Shown: positions 1,476-33,600 of the stretch, piece after piece
Position numbering within the stretch: the stretch's first letter is position 1
Layout: every line of letters starts with the position of its first letter
The notes under the pieces: generated by a model
What the model was told of the DNA's origin: nothing
The model's input: the letters and a program-made list of their open reading frames with translations, nothing else
The model's database searches: none
Made by a program: the position numbers and the translations under genes
Source of the DNA: Torpedo marmorata
Lineage: Eukaryota
Direction of reading: 5' to 3'
Length of the DNA: 64,000 bases
Assembly (NCBI GenBank): GCA_977017645.1
Contig: OZ360233.1
Coordinates: 18,104,001-18,168,000, forward strand

Positions 1476-2581
1476 TTAGATAAAAATCTATGAATCTTCA
1501 TATCATCATGATCAATCTCAGATCTATATAAATTCTGATAATTATCTTTAAAAGATTCATTTATTTCTTGTGGCTTATAAGTTATTTCCCCAGTATTTCT
1601 TTTCCTTATAGCATTTATAGTTTTAGAAACTTGTTCTTTTTTTAATTGCCATGATAAAACCTTATGAGCTTTTTCCCCTAATTCATAATATCTTTGCTTC
1701 GTTCTTTCAATTAATTTTTCAGTCTTACGAGTTTGTAATAAATTATAATGTAATTTCCTCCTAACTAAACGATTTCTCTTAAAAATTGACTTATTTCTTT
1801 GTAAATCCTTTTCCATGAATTCAATCTCCTTCTCTAATTTTTCTTCTTCTTTCAAATAATCTTTCTTAATCTTTGCTGAAAAACTTATTATTAAACCTCT
1901 TAAATAAGTTTTCAAAGCTTCCCATATCATACATTTATCATTAATCGAATTGTTATTTATTCTTAAAATGTCCTGAATTTCTTTTCTCATATATTCACAA
2001 AAATCCTCCCTTTCCAATAAACAAGAGTCAAATCTCCAATTGTATATAGTTTTTTCCTTCTCCGGGATTATACATGTCATTAATAAAGGTGAATGATCTG
2101 AAATTATTCTTGCTTTATAAGATACTTGTGTTATTCTATCCTGAATTTGTGAAGATAATAAGAATACATCTATCCTAGAAAATGAATTATGTCTGAATGA
2201 ATAAAATGAGTAATCTTTCTCTCTAGGATTCAATTTTCTCCAAATATCTACCAAATCTAAATCCTCCATCAGATTAATAATCTTTTTAACTATTTTAGGT
2301 CTAACAGATGACTTAGAAGTTTTATCCATTACTGGATTTAAACAACAATTGAAATCTCTACCAATTAGAATATTTTCCTTAGCATCTGACAAGTGTAAAA
2401 AAGCATCTTGAATAAATTGTTCATCATCTGGATTTGACACATATAAATTCATGAGTGCAAAATTCTGAATAAATTTGACAATATATCAAAACATATCTTC
2501 CTGCCATATCAGTCACTATCGATTGTATCTTAAAAGGTAATTTTTTATTAACTAAAATAACTACACCTCTAGCTTTAGATT
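1476..2581 (-). pseudogene. Inverted L1 ORF2 N-terminal fragment (APE endonuclease plus linker)
   Basis: Minus-strand translation gives SKARGVVIL..GRYVL (then a frameshift), NLYVSN, GRDFN, DIWR, SRIDVFL, SDHSP, WRFD and WEALK. It ends at RFLSK, where the plus-strand part resumes. Confidence 0.9.
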
Positions 2582-2614
2582 AATAGATTTTTATCTAAAA
2601 TTACTCTACCTAAA

Positions 2615-5083
2615 TTGAATGTTCAGAATAAATATTCTTTGGACTTACCTTTTACGATGAGAGAAGTTACTGAGGCAATATCGACGTTGAAAAGTGGTAA
2701 ATCTCCGGGTGACGATGGGTTTCCAGTAGAATTTTATAAAGAATTTAAAGACTTATTGATACCTTTATATATGGAGGTATTGAATCAAGTTACTGAAACT
2801 CATTTATTACCGAAGACATTTTTAAACGCTATCATTACAGTTATACCAAAGAAAGATAGAGATGTGTTGAAAACTGAGTCTTATCGACCTATTTCATTGT
2901 TAAATGTAGATTATAAAATAATGGCAAAAATTTTAGCAAATAGATTAGCTGAATATTTACCAAACTTGATACATTCAGATCAAGCTGGATTTATTAAGAA
3001 TAGATATTCGAAAGATAATATAGCTAGATTGATAAGTTTAATTAATTTACATAAGAAGAAACAAGATTTACCATTGGTGGTAACATTGGATGCAGAGAAG
3101 GCTTTTGATAGGTTAGAGTGGAATTTTTTATTTAAGGTTTTAGAAAAATTTGGTTTTGGAAATATTTTTATAAATTGGATTAAAACTATATACAAAGAGC
3201 CTACAGCTAAAGTAGTTACAAATGGACAAGTATCGTCAAAATTTTTATTATCACGATCAACAAGACAGGGATGTCCCCTGTCACCTGCTTTATTTGTTTT
3301 GGCAATAGAACCTTTAGCTGAATTGATTAGAGAAGATAGAAATATAATGGGTATAAAAGTTGGTAGGGAAGAACATAAGATTAGCTTGTTTGCAGATGAT
3401 GTATTAATATATATGACAAAATCTGTTACATCACTTCAGCAATTGGCTACCATATTGACAGAATATGGTGCGATATCTGGATATAAAATTAATTCAGATA
3501 AAAGTGAGATTCTGGCTTTATCTCAAGGTGATTATACTAGATGTAGAGAGGTTACGGAGTTTAAATGGGCTAAAGAAAGTATTAAATATTTGGGAGTTAA
3601 AGTGGATACAAAGTTGGAAAATTTGTATAAATTAAACTATATACCTTTATTCATGAAAATAAAAAAAGATTTAGAACTTTGGAAAGACTTACCTATAACT
3701 TTGATGGGAAGAGTAAATTGTATCAAAATGAATGTTTTTCCAAGAATTCAATATCTTTTTCAATCGATTCCTTTTGGAATCCCAAATAAATTTTTTAAGG
3801 ATTTAAAATTTGTTATTAGGAAATTTTTATGGAAAGGAAAGTTGGCAAGAGGAAGTATAGATAAATTAACATGGAATTATGAGATGGGAGGATTGCAACT
3901 TCCTAATTTTCAGTATTACTATAAAGCAGCTCAACTAAAATTTATTAATGAATTTTTTGATTCAACTAAATCTTCTGCTTGGATTAATATAGAATTGAAT
4001 AATATAGGAGAAATACATAAAGAAGAGATTATTTATAAGAGGAACTCTAAACTATTGTTAGCTAAAAATAAAAATTCACCAATTATTAAACATTTGTTGG
4101 AAATTTGGTCACAATTAGATAAAGAAATAGGTTGGAAAGGATCAATTTCTTTAAATACACCAATATACCAAAATTTGCTTATACCATTCTCTATTGATAA
4201 TCAGTTACTTAAATTATGGTTTCAAAAGGGAATTAAGACCTTGAAAGATTGTTTTGAAGCTGGTAGATTTGTTACTTTTCAAAGGTTAAAAGAAAAATTT
4301 AATATACTAGACAATACAATGTTAGTTTATTTTCAAGTTAAAGCCTTTTTGACTGAGATATTAGGGAATGAATTAATAGCACCAAGACAAAATGAATTGG
4401 AATTGTTAATTACTAAAGTTAATATTAATAAGTTTATATCACAAATGTATAAATTATTTCAGAGAAAGATGTCTAAGGTAGGGTTACATAAATCTAGATT
4501 AAAATGGGAACTAGACTTAAATGTTAATATAGATGAAAATCATTGGAGAGACTTATGTAAATTAAGTATGACTAAAGTCTTGAATGTTAGATATAGACTA
4601 GTACAATATAATTTCTTTCATCAATTATATTTAACACCTAAAAAATTAAAGAAATTTAATCCAGCATTATCAGATATGTGTTTTAGATGTAAGAGTGAAA
4701 TAGGCTCTTTTGTTCACTGTACATGGTTATGTTCAAAAATTCAAGACTTTTGGTTGAAAGTTAAGAATTTTTTAGAGAGAATTTTTAATGTTGTGTTTAC
4801 GATGGATCCTATGTTATTTTTATTTGGAGATATTAGAAAATTTATTATTAGAAATAGATTAAATATGTATCAGGTAGAACTTTTACGTATAGTTTTAGCA
4901 GTTTCGAAAAAATGTATAGCTATTACTTGGAAGTCAGATGCAGATTTAAATTTAGAAAGATGGCATGCAGAATTACGTTCATCAATACCATTAGAAAAAA
5001 TTACCTATAATTTGCGTAATAAATATAATTTTTTCTTGAAAATTTGGGGCCCATATATGAGAATTACGGGTTTAACAATTTAA
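2615..5083 (+). CDS. L1 ORF2 C-terminal part: reverse transcriptase plus CCHC zinc knuckle (N-terminally truncated)
   Basis: 822-aa open frame with KSPGDDG, YRPISLLNVDYKI, LDAEKAFD, RQGCPLSP, LFADD, YLGV and CFRC...HCTWLC. Confidence 0.92.
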   Translation: MNVQNKYSLDLPFTMREVTEAISTLKSGKSPGDDGFPVEFYKEFKDLLIPLYMEVLNQVTETHLLPKTFLNAIITVIPKKDRDVLKTESYRPISLLNVDYKIMAKILANRLAEYLPNLIHSDQAGFIKNRYSKDNIARLISLINLHKKKQDLPLVVTLDAEKAFDRLEWNFLFKVLEKFGFGNIFINWIKTIYKEPTAKVVTNGQVSSKFLLSRSTRQGCPLSPALFVLAIEPLAELIREDRNIMGIKVGREEHKISLFADDVLIYMTKSVTSLQQLATILTEYGAISGYKINSDKSEILALSQGDYTRCREVTEFKWAKESIKYLGVKVDTKLENLYKLNYIPLFMKIKKDLELWKDLPITLMGRVNCIKMNVFPRIQYLFQSIPFGIPNKFFKDLKFVIRKFLWKGKLARGSIDKLTWNYEMGGLQLPNFQYYYKAAQLKFINEFFDSTKSSAWINIELNNIGEIHKEEIIYKRNSKLLLAKNKNSPIIKHLLEIWSQLDKEIGWKGSISLNTPIYQNLLIPFSIDNQLLKLWFQKGIKTLKDCFEAGRFVTFQRLKEKFNILDNTMLVYFQVKAFLTEILGNELIAPRQNELELLITKVNINKFISQMYKLFQRKMSKVGLHKSRLKWELDLNVNIDENHWRDLCKLSMTKVLNVRYRLVQYNFFHQLYLTPKKLKKFNPALSDMCFRCKSEIGSFVHCTWLCSKIQDFWLKVKNFLERIFNVVFTMDPMLFLFGDIRKFIIRNRLNMYQVELLRIVLAVSKKCIAITWKSDADLNLERWHAELRSSIPLEKITYNLRNKYNFFLKIWGPYMRITGLTI

Positions 5084-5689
5084 ATTCTCTGGATATCGGA
5101 TCCACTGGCGAAAATAACCTCTATGGTAGAATTAGTTTGTAACTTGTTTTCTCCTCACTCTATTTTTCTATCTTTCTTTTTTCTTTTTCTCTTTTACTAT
5201 ATTTTTTTTATATATATATATTTTTAGACTAGTGGGGATGTAGGGGTTAGGGAGGGGAGGGTGGGAAGAGGGGGGGAGAAAATGTATATCACATGTATTT
5301 TCAAATATATGCATTTTATTCTATGTATTTTGTGATTTAAAAATTTAAATAAAAGAAAAAAAAAGAAAAAAAAAAAGAAAAAAAAAAGAAATGAGGTAGA
5401 GATAGAGAGCGCGAAATTGAGAGTGAGAGAGATGGGAAGCGGTTTGAGAGAAAACGGGAGAAAGAGGACGGGAGAGCGTGTTAAGGATTGCGAAAAGTTA
5501 AGCAGGTGAAAACGTGAGACAGAGTGAGGTGGAGGAATAGAACGACAGAAGGGGAGAGAGGGTGGAGTGAGTGAAAGCGAGGGAGGAGATACAAGGAGGG
5601 AAGGAGAAAGACGCGGTGAATGTACAGATAGAGGAAGAAACTTGCGTGAAGGACGGGGAACGAGATGCAGACTGTCTTAACAACTCGGT

Positions 5690-5888
5690 TTGATTGGTTT
5701 AATAATGGCCACACCAACCAATCCTGTGTGAGGGAAACACTCTCATATCTGTCCCAGGCCTTGGTTCGCTCATAACATCGACCCACCCCTTGTATAGCGG
5801 TAACACATAGAAATATTTGCTTTTGACCTTATTCCGCGTACCATGTACCTGCTGAGTTGTTTTCTGCTTCTATGGGCCGTTCTGACAG
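5690..5888 (+). other. Orphan promoter plus leader exon E1 (MYLLSCFLLLWAVLT/G, exon 5843-5888)
   Basis: ATTGG and CCAAT boxes, TATA-like TTGTATAG, ACCATG start, a 46-nt phase-1 hydrophobic exon and a GT donor. It has no V exon of its own. Confidence 0.8.
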
Positions 5889-6210
5889 GTGCGTCTTTCT
5901 GATTGGTCACCGACTTCTGTCCATCTTCCTTGCTCTACGTGTCTCCCACTTTAACCTAATAAAAGTTCGGTGATACCCCAAGACACACAGTCCTTCTCTC
6001 TCCCTCCGTTTACTCATTTACACTTTCACTCTGTGCTTACTGATCTCCCTTGCGCGGTCTCTCCCGCACTCTCTCGCTCCTCGCCGCTCTCGTGCGAGGG
6101 AAACAACCCCTGTCTCCAAGAGAGGTTCTTCTTCTTCCGACATGAGCTTGCGGCCTTTTATCCGGCGAGCATTTGGAAAATATCGTTCTACCGAATTTAA
6201 GCTGGGCATC

Positions 6211-6672
6211 ATATTCCTCCTGAGTTGTTGGCTGATTCCATGGGCCGTTCTGCCTGGTGAGATTGATTGCCAACTCATGTTGCGTGGATTCAGCGCCATC
6301 CAGCGCAGTTCACACATTCTGTTTTGTTCCAGGGGTGAGTGGGAACGATGCAGTGACCCAAAGACCGCCGGAACTGATAGTCGCTGAAGGGCAGATCGTA
6401 TCACTGAGCTGCAGTTACTCGATGAGAGCCGAGGCATATTTATGGTACATTCAACGCCCCGGAGAATCTCCTAAATACTTGCTAAAAATGTACACGTCAG
6501 GAGATGTGGTTCAGTCTCACGATTTTCCGGAGAAGATATCGGGTTCCTTGGAGAAACAGAGCCAGAGATTCCACCTCAATATCTCAAAAACCTGTGAGGA
6601 GGATTCCGCCGTGTATCACTGCGCTGTGGTTTTCACTCTGTTCCAGGGCGGTGGAGGATCCGCATAAAAACT
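6211..6672 (+). CDS. TRAV: TCR alpha/delta-type V segment A1 (own leader start is ATA; V exon 6333-6633 open; 23-RSS)
   Basis: DAVTQRPPELIVAEGQIVSLSCSYS..WYIQRPGESPKYLL..EDSAVYHCAV. RSS is CACTCTG (6634), 23 nt, ATAAAAACT (6664). Confidence 0.8.
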
Positions 6673-9265: not shown

Positions 9266-9734
9266 ATGTCCCTCAAGAGGTACTTGCTGACTGTATAGGC
9301 CATTCTGGCAGGTGAGTCTCTGTCTGATCAGTCAGTGCGTCCCGCGGATTCAGCGCAATCCCGTGCCGCTCACACACTCCGTGTTTCATTCCAGGCACGA
9401 GTGGGGAGGAATCCGTGACCCAAGGACCTCAGGAAATGACGGCCGAGGAAAGGCAGACCGTGCCACTGAGCTGTAGTTACTCGGCGAGTCACACCGCATA
9501 TTTTTGGTACCTTCAACATCTTGGAGAACCTCCCAAATATTTGGTGAAAATGTACACCTCGGGAGAAGTGGTTCCGTCTCACGATTGTCCGGATCGGATG
9601 TCGGGTTCTTTGGAGAAAAAGAACCAGCGCTTTCACTTGAGTATCTCTGGGGCTCTTGTGGAGGACTCCGCCACGTATTTCTGCGCAGTGCGGCCCACAC
9701 TGTTCCTGGGCGATGACGGATCCGCACAAAAACT
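9266..9734 (+). pseudogene. TRAV: TCR V segment B1: stop codon in leader, V exon 9395-9695 open, RSS intact
   Basis: Leader reads MSLKRYLLTV* (TGG to TAG). V exon is ESVTQGPQEM..LSCSYS..WYLQ..EDSATYFCAVR. RSS is CACACTG (9696), 23 nt, ACAAAAACT. Confidence 0.85.
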
Positions 9735-10406: not shown

Positions 10407-10850
10407 ATGTACCCCCTGATTTGTTTGCTGACTCTATCGGCCGTTCTGCCTGGTGAGTGTCTCTCTGGTTTATCAGCACGTGTCCGCCGGTTCAGCGATT
10501 CGTGTTTCGTTCTCGAAATGATTGGGGAAGTTTATGTAACCTATGGACCGCCGGAACGCATGACAGAGGAATTACAGACCGTGTCACTGAGCAGCAGTTA
10601 TTTGATGAGTACCTCCGCACAGTTTTGGTACATTCAATATCCTGGAGAACCTCCCAGATTTTGATGAAAATGTACAACTGCGGCGATGTGGTTACGCCTC
10701 AAGATAGCGGAAGAAGATGTCAGGTTTCTTTGAGACAAAGAGCCAGAGGGTCCACACTGACTGTCTACGGGACGCTTGAGTCGGACTCCGCCGTGTATAT
10801 CTGCGTCGTGAAGCCCACTATTCCAGAGCGATGGCGGGTCCGAATAAAAC
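10407..10850 (+). pseudogene. TCR V pseudogene C1
   Basis: Leader MYPLICLLTLSAVLP/G with GT donor. The acceptor is lost, there is a frameshift and stop after GEPPRF, the SDSAVYICVV remnant survives, and the RSS is degenerate. Confidence 0.85.
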
Positions 10851-11732: not shown

Positions 11733-12193
11733 GCTTCCTCACCATCCAGTAGTTTGCTGATTCTATGGGCCGTTCTGCTTGGCGAGTCTCTGTTTGATTG
11801 ATCAGCGCGTGTCCATCCCGGCTCAGCGCAATTCCTCGCATATCACACACTGCGTGTTTCATTCCAGGCACAAATGTGGAAAACTAGTGACCCACGGACG
11901 GATGGAACGGATGGCCGCGGTAAGTGTCGCTGAGCTCTGGTTACCCGAAAAAGGCTGCCGTATGTTTTTGGTACGTTCAAGTTCCCGTGGAGTCTTGGAT
12001 ACATTTGCTGAAAATGTACAGCGCAGGAGATGAGGTTCCGTGTCACGATTGTCCGGTCAGGATGACGGGTTCCTTGGAGAAAAGGGGCCGGATACCTTAA
12101 TATCTCCGAAGCTATTGAAGCGGACCTGGCCGTTTATGTCTGCGCGGTGCGGCTCACAATGTTCCTGGGATATTGCGGAGACGCACAAAAGCT
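11733..12193 (+). pseudogene. TCR V pseudogene D1 (RSS retained)
   Basis: Leader lacks an ATG and has a GC donor. The V exon is frameshifted and ends DLAVYVCAVR. RSS is CACAATG (12155), 23 nt, ACAAAAGCT. Confidence 0.85.
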
Positions 12194-12598: not shown

Positions 12599-12644
12599 AT
12601 GTCCTCCCTGAGTTGTTTGCTGATTCTGTGGGCCGTTCTGACTG
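12599..12644 (+). other. Orphan leader exon E2 (MSSLSCLLILWAVLT/G)
   Basis: 46-nt open exon with GTGAGT donor and upstream CCAAT/TATA-like promoter. Confidence 0.8.
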
Positions 12645-12975
12645 GTGAGTCTGTCTGATTGGTCAGTGACGTCTGTCCATCGTCCTTGCTCTACGAGTCT
12701 CCCTCTTTAACTTAATTAAAGGTAGACAATTCCCCCAAGTCAAACCCTCTCCGTCGCACGTTCTCCCACCGTTTACTCATTTACACACTCTCTGTTTACT
12801 GAACTTCCTCACGGTCGATCTGTCGCTCTATCTCTCTCTCCCTCCTCGCCGTTCTCGTGAAAGGGAAACGGCTCGTGTCTCCAACAGAGTTTCTGCTGCT
12901 TCCGACGTGAGTTTACGCACTTCTATCGGGCGAGCATTTTTAAAATATCCTTCCTTCGAATTTAATCCGGGCATC

Positions 12976-13440
12976 ATGCTCCTCCTTTGTCGTTCGCTGA
13001 TTCTATGGGCCGTTCTGCCTGGTGAGACTGATTGATCAACACGAGTCCCGCGGGGTCAGTGCCGTTTCGCGCAGTTCACACATTCTGTCTTTTGTTCCAG
13101 TGGCGAGTGGGAACGATTCAGTGACCCAAGAACCCCCGGAACTGATTGTCAATGAAGGGCAGATCGTATCACTGAGCTGTAGTTACTCGATTAATCCCGC
13201 TGCATTTTTTTGGTACATTCAACGTCCTGGAGAATCTCCCAAATATTTGCTGAAAATCTACACGTCAGGAGATGTGGTTCCGTCTCCCGATTGTCCGGAG
13301 AGGATATCGAGTTCATTGGAGAAAAAGAGCCAGACATTCCACCTCAATAACTCGAAAACCCTTGTGGAGGATTCTGCCGTGTATCTCTGCGCCGTGAAGC
13401 TCACACTGTTCCAGGGCGGTGGCAGATCCGCACAAAAACT
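12976..13440 (+). CDS. TRAV: TCR V segment A2 (leader 12976-13021, V exon 13101-13401, 23-RSS)
   Basis: Open leader and V exon with the conserved Cys, Trp and Cys. RSS is CACACTG (13402), 23 nt, ACAAAAACT. Confidence 0.88.
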
Positions 13441-33554: not shown

Positions 33555-33600
33555 ATGTCCTCCCTGAGTTGTTTGCTGATTCTGTGGGCCGTTCTGACTG
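33555..33600 (+). other. Orphan leader exon E5
   Basis: 46-nt open exon, GTGAGT donor. Confidence 0.8.

What the first reader, a model, noticed from the sequence alone, without database searches (positions are those of the whole stretch)
5690..6672. Two-leader V gene: an orphan promoter and leader exon ~370-400 bp upstream of every V-A may supply its signal peptide
Seen: all nine cassettes have a 46-nt phase-1 leader exon (E) with an intact ATG, a hydrophobic core, a GT donor and its own CCAAT/TATA-like promoter, but no V exon. Seen: the proximal V-A leader has the same length and phase, but its promoter is a decayed homologue of the V-B promoter (CRE T to C change, no TATA or CCAAT, CT microsatellite upstream). 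In A1 the proximal start codon is ATA while E1 is intact. E1 differs from E2-E9 at several codons yet stays hydrophobic. Inference: E splices in frame to the V-A acceptor, giving alternative or replacement leader use and rescuing A1. An automatic annotator would call A1 a pseudogene.
Basis: partly seen in the sequence, partly recalled or inferred. Interest (0 to 1): 0.72.

Follow-up and report, generated by a model that had tools for sequence, protein, structure and literature searches.

The report
Two-leader T-cell receptor V genes
In a shark-or-ray genome, all 55 copies of one T-cell receptor gene segment carry a spare promoter-like stretch and signal-peptide exon just upstream, which likely supplies the signal peptide for part of the family while the segment's own one has broken in nine copies; no RNA was available to show it.

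Summary
The anatomy is real and larger than reported. All 55 V-A exons in 464 kb around the window have an extra 46-nt, same-phase leader (E) 336-411 bp upstream of their own leader (P). E has ATG, GT and an open frame in 55 of 55. P has lost its start (7 copies, 2 changes on the tree) or gained a stop (2), while V-A is open in 52. E keeps the CCAAT/TATA-like layout of single-leader neighbours and usually has the better donor. It appears to be the leader of a different V gene whose V exon was lost. E-to-V splicing is plausible and has a mouse precedent (TRBV12-2 leader on TRBV13-2), but it is not shown. No RNA run was listed, and my selection tests were weak: dead genes C and D keep equally conserved leader exons. 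No earlier scan note on this arrangement was returned. New variant of a known kind, moderate interest.

The parts
5693..5842 (+). E promoter-like region: inverted CCAAT 5693, CCAAT 5718, shared box 5730, degenerate CRE position 5773, TATA-like 5791
   Evidence: motif names are recalled consensus, function untested
5843..5888 (+). E1, orphan leader exon, 46 nt, phase 1, ATG intact, donor 7 of 9 to the U1 consensus
5889..6095 (+). E intron start (about 20 nt like other V introns), then a pyrimidine-rich spacer that weakly resembles inverted intergenic DNA; AATAAA at 5958
6096..6210 (+). P promoter remnant (proximal half only); in this copy the CRE-like core is changed so that an in-frame ATG stands at 6142
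6211..6256 (+). P1, native leader exon, start codon ATA, Leu10Pro in the hydrophobic core, donor 6 of 9
6257..6332 (+). 76-nt intron with the shared acceptor
6333..6633 (+). V-A1 exon, open, V-set domain with both cysteines and the tryptophan
6634..6672 (+). 23-spacer RSS with one change each in heptamer and nonamer against the A2 copies
12599..13440 (+). E2-P2-V-A2 unit, first of eight window units of the large A2 clade (other E starts 20084, 26823, 33555, 40312, 47047, 53816, 60596)

Best explanation
V-A is a T-cell receptor alpha/delta-type V family in which every copy has two leader exons, and the upstream one (E) likely serves as a real signal-peptide exon for part of the family. Inferred origin: a neighbouring V gene lost its V exon in one old rearrangement that also removed the far half of V-A's own promoter, leaving E and its promoter 0.34-0.41 kb upstream; the unit was then copied at least 55 times. 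Inferred working: after V-J joining, transcripts start at E's promoter and splice from E to the V acceptor, skipping P inside a 412-490 nt intron; transcripts from P's remaining promoter half may still use P. This redundancy would let P break in some lineages.
For: Shown: 55 of 55 V-A exons lie in E-P-V units. E has ATG, GT, 46 nt and no stop in 55 of 55; P has ATA in 7 and a stop in 2, and its last base is T in 5. ATA needs 2 changes on the tree and the ATA copies are rejected as one clade (p-AU 0.0004). V-A is open in 52 of 55, with 1 nonsense variant against 14.4 expected. Zero start/GT/stop hits in E against 4.6 expected from flank rates (P=0.0045; about 0.05 at the exon's own rate). E keeps the inverted CCAAT at about -150 (46 of 55) also seen in V-B (26 of 38) and family F (33 of 33); P has it in 0 of 55. 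E donor matches the U1 consensus at 7 of 9 in 45 of 55; P never exceeds 6 of 9. No CAG/TAG acceptor with a pyrimidine tract lies in the spacer in 39 of 55. All 9 P-dead copies keep E's three motifs, against 25 of 46 others (only 3 lineages, so about p=0.16 by my arithmetic). In the A2 clade E has 7 variants and P 18 (p=0.043, post hoc). Precedent: 46,029 of 69,248 mouse TRBV13-2 transcripts use the TRBV12-2 leader.
Against: No transcript seen. N/S on E is 1.32, no purifying signal. Negative controls behave alike: the leader of dead V-C keeps ATG in 25 of 26 with no stop (about 2 hits against 4.3 expected); the dead D leader exon is as conserved against its flanks (ratio 0.42, p=0.003) as E in A2 (0.35, p=0.002), and intact family F shows no such dip. 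Over all 55 copies E and P vary alike (22 vs 27, p=0.57). E lacks the CRE-like core that P (49 of 55) and B (30 of 38) have; E's promoter varies at the neutral rate in A2 (0.43 vs 0.44). In clade A0 E varies more than P (may be one mosaic copy). AATAAA or ATTAAA stands 70 nt into the E intron in 50 of 55. P's GT is intact in 55 of 55 and could win as the nearer donor.
Confidence: 0.55

Rival explanations
1. E is an inert relic. It was left by the rearrangement and looks intact only because the array is young and leader exons here change slowly or are homogenised by gene conversion; P is the only working leader, and copies with ATA or a stop are ordinary pseudogenes.
For: Dead-gene leaders C and D are about as conserved. 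P keeps GT in 55 of 55, ATG in 48 of 55 and the CRE-like core in 49 of 55. All 10 A1-clade copies have a changed heptamer and nonamer and a +4 change in E's donor. ATA copies show no clear selection on V: 3 amino-acid variants vs 6.4 expected in one group, 6 vs 3.6 and a frameshift in the other.
Against: P's promoter lost its CCAAT half in the founding event, yet V-A stays under selection. E has no disabling change in 55 copies spanning about 15% divergence, P has several.
Confidence: 0.27
2. E's promoter is what matters, not its peptide. Transcripts start at E's promoter but splice from the nearer P donor, so E's ATG heads a short upstream frame (19 codons) and P, or in A1 the new ATG at 6142, supplies the signal peptide; or E's CCAAT boxes simply boost P's start site.
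For: The unspliced E frame stops after 19 codons in 55 of 55, 311-348 nt before P in the window copies. P's donor is nearly invariant. A1 and one sister copy have an in-frame ATG 69 nt before the ATA.
Against: That upstream ATG exists in only 2 of the 7 ATA copies. It does not explain why E's ATG and GT persist, since an upstream ATG would lower output (inference). E's donor is usually the better match.
Confidence: 0.13
3. E is transcribed but ends early at the poly(A)-like hexamer 70 nt into its intron, giving short sterile RNAs that at most open the chromatin for recombination.
For: Hexamer present in 50 of 55 copies, canonical AATAAA at 5958 in A1.
Against: It is one inherited site in AT-rich filler; a donor this close normally suppresses such sites (recalled, U1 protection).
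Confidence: 0.05

Closest known systems
Mouse TRBV12-2 leader spliced onto TRBV13-2 (bioRxiv 10.64898/2026.01.30.702900, passages read)
   Same: The leader exon of one V gene joined in frame to the V exon of a downstream one, in competition with the native leader.
   Different: Shown by transcripts in mouse, not here. The mouse donor gene has its own V exon and the paper found few or no such events outside the TRBV12/13 families. Here the donor has no V exon, sits under 0.5 kb away, and the pair has been copied 55 times with the native leader broken in 9.
Cartilaginous-fish TCR alpha/delta V segments; nearest named protein Leucoraja erinacea XP_055487445.1, 51% identity
   Same: Short phase-1 leader, about 80-nt intron, V-set exon, 23-RSS; the leader resembles a nurse-shark alphaV4 leader primer peptide in PMC5931798 (passage read; resemblance by eye only).
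   Different: Two leaders per V. In the F family and the other V genes inspected I called one leader each and did not search them for a divergent second one.
V remnants in fish TCR loci (catfish, PMC8656973, passages read)
   Same: 5'-end-only fragments of V genes are common in these loci.
   Different: Those are described as scattered remnants; E is in a fixed position and frame in front of every member of an intact family.

Membership tests
TCR alpha/delta V segment | Leader exon, short intron, V-set exon with Cys, Trp, Cys | tested here: met
TCR alpha/delta V segment | 23-spacer RSS at the 3' end | tested here: met
   55 of 55; weaker in the 10 A1-clade copies
TCR alpha/delta V segment | Closest natural chains are TCR alpha V domains | tested here: met
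   After engineered multi-domain antibody constructs, the best PDB chains are TCR alpha
TCR alpha/delta V segment | Linked J and C alpha/delta genes downstream | tested here: inconclusive
   PF09291 found nothing, and nothing in its controls; C1-set top 150 of 707 candidates gave C45 hits only from 22.5 Mb, not identified; further V exons at 19.59-19.61 Mb, one with a 23-RSS, no J found in 30 kb
TCR alpha/delta V segment | Rearranged and expressed | not testable with these tools
   no RNA holder listed
Borrowed-leader splicing (TRBV12-2/13-2 type) | Upstream leader in the same phase, giving an open fusion | tested here: met
   E+V open in 52 of 55; the 3 failures are breaks in V
Borrowed-leader splicing (TRBV12-2/13-2 type) | Leader comes from a different V gene | tested here: inconclusive
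   P groups with B (97/94), E with C and D; E+P as one clade is borderline, p-AU 0.053; V-exon tree did not resolve V-A's sister
Borrowed-leader splicing (TRBV12-2/13-2 type) | Donor gene keeps its own V exon | tested here: not met
   No E copy is followed by its own V in 55
Borrowed-leader splicing (TRBV12-2/13-2 type) | Active upstream promoter | tested here: inconclusive
   Motifs only; CCAAT-like kept, CRE-like lost, no excess conservation
Borrowed-leader splicing (TRBV12-2/13-2 type) | Junction seen in mRNA | not testable with these tools

The most novel reading that the evidence does not exclude
A leader takeover caught in progress and fixed in the germline: an orphan promoter and leader from a deleted V gene has become the main 5' end of one of the largest V families in this T-cell receptor locus, different subfamilies lean on different leaders (E in A2 and A1, P in A0), and V genes that annotators would call pseudogenes are expressed.
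Probability: 0.35. Interest if true: 0.6.

Novelty: new variant of a known kind. Interest (0 to 1): 0.42.

Why it matters
If true, a V gene can swap its promoter and signal peptide for a neighbour's and keep expanding, so start-codon or leader-stop rules undercount working V genes (9 of 55 here, 8 with open V exons). It would also give 55 natural variants of one two-promoter, two-donor unit for testing what a cartilaginous-fish TCR promoter needs. It does not change receptor specificity, because the leader is cleaved, and a similar splice is known in mouse, which caps the surprise.

Tried and rejected
Processed genomic copies of the E-V junction: none found, uninformative. N/S on leaders: no signal. 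Exon-versus-flank conservation: looked supportive for E in A2 but failed its negative control D and positive control F, so I do not count it. CpG content: near 1 everywhere, no contrast. Inverted origin of the spacer: best alignments are to reversed DNA upstream of D but weak (z 2.3-4.6; blast hits are mostly microsatellite). Tandem duplication of P as the origin of E: disfavoured, not rejected. A cryptic internal exon from the CT tract to P's donor: candidate AGs vary in place and frame among copies, and in A1 both are GAG and out of frame. Branch-wise substitution counts from ancestral states were not made, so all rates are counts of distinct variants among living copies and are open to gene conversion. 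C-region search failed. No relative genomes are held, so the age and species range of the arrangement are unknown. No SignalP was available; only a hydrophobicity window was used (E 2.7-3.4, P 2.4-2.6). The TATA-like count is permissive: in some A0 copies it matches a nearer AT-rich site. Literature: nine searches returned no description of a two-leader V family in cartilaginous fish; the library lacks most subscription papers. The 1987 mouse report of the borrowed leader is recalled and was not held. Supplements of the bioRxiv mouse paper (Tables S5K-L) were not seen and may list further pairs.

Full report
Setting. The window is G000:C45:18104001-18168000 in a 6.2-Gb genome. It is a tandem array of V gene segments on the + strand with 23-spacer RSS. 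The V-A domain is a Pfam V-set; its best natural matches among solved structures are TCR alpha chains and its nearest named protein is a little-skate model at 51% identity. I read it as a cartilaginous-fish TCR alpha/delta V array. J and C genes were not located, so the chain assignment rests on similarity.

Observation. In the window each of 9 V-A exons has two 46-nt phase-1 leaders, E and P, 368-405 bp apart. At the reported place E1 is 5843-5888, P1 6211-6256 with ATA, the V exon 6333-6633 and the RSS 6634-6672. I fetched 400 kb of flanking DNA. In the 464 kb, 55 of 55 V-A exons lie in E-P-V units, in three clades: A0 (8), A1 (10), A2 (37). The repeat also holds V-B (38 leaders; 12 with ATG, open V and RSS), V-C (26; none with an RSS) and V-D (54; none with ATG). 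The unit is one event copied many times, not many events.

State of the two leaders. E has ATG, GT, full length and no stop in 55 of 55. P has ATA in 7, a stop at codon 7 in 2 and T as last base in 5; its GT is intact in all. ATA needs 2 changes on trees built without P's exon, and the ATA copies are rejected as one clade (p-AU 0.0004): two origins, or one with conversion. V-A is open in 52 of 55, with one nonsense variant against 14.4 expected, so the family is under selection. E's donor matches the U1 consensus (recalled) at 7 of 9 places in 45 copies and 6 in 10; P scores 6 in 50 copies and less in 5. In 39 of 55 spacers no CAG or TAG acceptor with a pyrimidine tract intervenes.

Promoters. 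E keeps an inverted CCAAT near -150 (46 of 55), a CCAAT near -125 (46) and a TATA-like site (47). V-B has the same layout (26, 34, 26 of 38) and the separate intact family F has the inverted CCAAT in 33 of 33; P has 0, 0 and 4 of 55. P's homology to the other promoters begins only at about -115, where the CT-rich spacer ends. Against this, the CRE-like core is in 49 of 55 P, 30 of 38 B and 0 of 55 E (also 0 of 33 F); dead D keeps the inverted CCAAT in 41 of 54; and both promoters vary at the neutral rate in A2. Only 6 of the 9 window copies keep all three E motifs. None of these motifs is tested in this animal.

Origin. In a tree of promoter plus leader (48 rows chosen from the five classes), P groups with B (97/94) and E with C and D; forcing E and P together is borderline (p-AU 0.053). 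E's intron follows other V introns for about 20 nt and then changes to sequence that aligns weakly to reversed intergenic DNA (z 2.3-4.6). The simplest reading, inferred, is one deletion with an inverted fill-in that removed E's V exon and the far half of P's promoter.

Selection tests, with controls. With flank rates, 4.6 start, GT or stop variants are expected in E and none is seen (P=0.0045; about 0.05 at the exon's own rate); P has 2 (P=0.16). But the dead-gene leader C has about 2 against 4.3, so E's excess over the control is small. N/S is 1.32 for E, 0.89 for P, 0.59 for V. In A2, E has 7 variants and P 18 (p=0.043, post hoc); over all copies 22 and 27 (p=0.57); in A0 the order reverses, possibly through one mosaic copy. 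The exon-versus-flank dip of E in A2 (0.35) is matched by dead D (0.42) and absent in intact F (1.04), so it is not diagnostic. All 9 P-dead copies keep E's three motifs, against 25 of 46 others, but they are three lineages.

The A1 copy. P1 has ATA and Leu10Pro; E1 has gained a consensus base at -2 of its donor. That fits a handover. However all 10 A1-clade copies have a changed heptamer and nonamer, the sister ATA copy has a frameshift in V, and V shows no clear constraint among ATA copies. A1 and that sister also have an in-frame ATG at 6142, inside P's promoter remnant, which would add 23 residues to P if a transcript included it. AATAAA stands at 5958. Rescue of A1 is an open possibility, about 40% by my judgement.

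Mechanism. Most likely (0.55): E's promoter fires after V-J joining and E splices to the V acceptor across 412-490 nt, beside some use of P. Shown: order, phase, open frames, motif presence, breakage counts. Inferred: transcription, splicing, signal-peptide function, origin. Rivals: inert relic (0.27), E promoter with P-type splicing (0.13), early termination (0.05).

Comparison. In mouse, 46,029 of 69,248 TRBV13-2 transcripts carry the TRBV12-2 leader (bioRxiv 10.64898/2026.01.30.702900, passages). This locus would work like that but differs in having a donor without a V exon, built into every copy of an expanded family. Catfish TCR loci hold scattered 5' remnants (PMC8656973, passages). Passages of PMC5931798, PMC6795676, PMC8559430, PMC4199765, 10.1101/761437 and 10.64898/2026.06.05.730236 gave nothing on two-leader V genes; other papers were seen as search listings only. 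Look-ups of earlier scan notes by place, words and sequence returned no note on this arrangement.

Verdict. Observation confirmed, interpretation partly supported, decisive RNA test not available. New variant of a known kind; interest 0.42.

Noticed in passing
window about 1476-5389: A 3.9-kb AT-rich insertion ending in a poly(A) run, with an apparent target-site duplication near 1459 and 5386, lies about 300 bp upstream of E1's promoter; it widens the D-to-E gap to 4781 bp against 420-835 elsewhere. Looks like a LINE by eye; not tested.
   Followed up: no
window 6142-6144: In-frame ATG 69 nt before P1's ATA, made by the change that breaks the CRE-like core; shared only with the copy at C45:18067501.
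   Followed up: partly
window 9266-9311: V-B1 leader has a stop at codon 11 while its V exon frame is open.
   Followed up: no
V-D leaders, e.g. window 11736-11781: None of 54 V-D leaders has ATG and 51 have a GC donor, yet the exon is conserved against its flanks as strongly as E; cause unexplained, gene conversion among leader exons is a guess.
   Followed up: partly
V-C leaders, e.g. window 10407-10452: 25 of 26 keep ATG and none has a stop although V-C has no RSS and mostly no acceptor: a second class of intact leader without a working V exon.
   Followed up: partly
window 26823 and 40312: These E copies have lost two and three promoter motifs while P keeps ATG and V is open.
   Followed up: partly
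C45:18.05-18.45 Mb (L003-L036): Higher-order repeats with identical V-A proteins (window units at 33555 and 47047 and one at C45:18190749) suggest very recent unequal crossing-over; assembly duplication was not excluded.
   Followed up: no
C45:18.32-18.59 Mb and beyond to at least 19.27 Mb: Further V families (F and others, 43-59% identical to V-A) continue downstream, mostly intact.
   Followed up: partly
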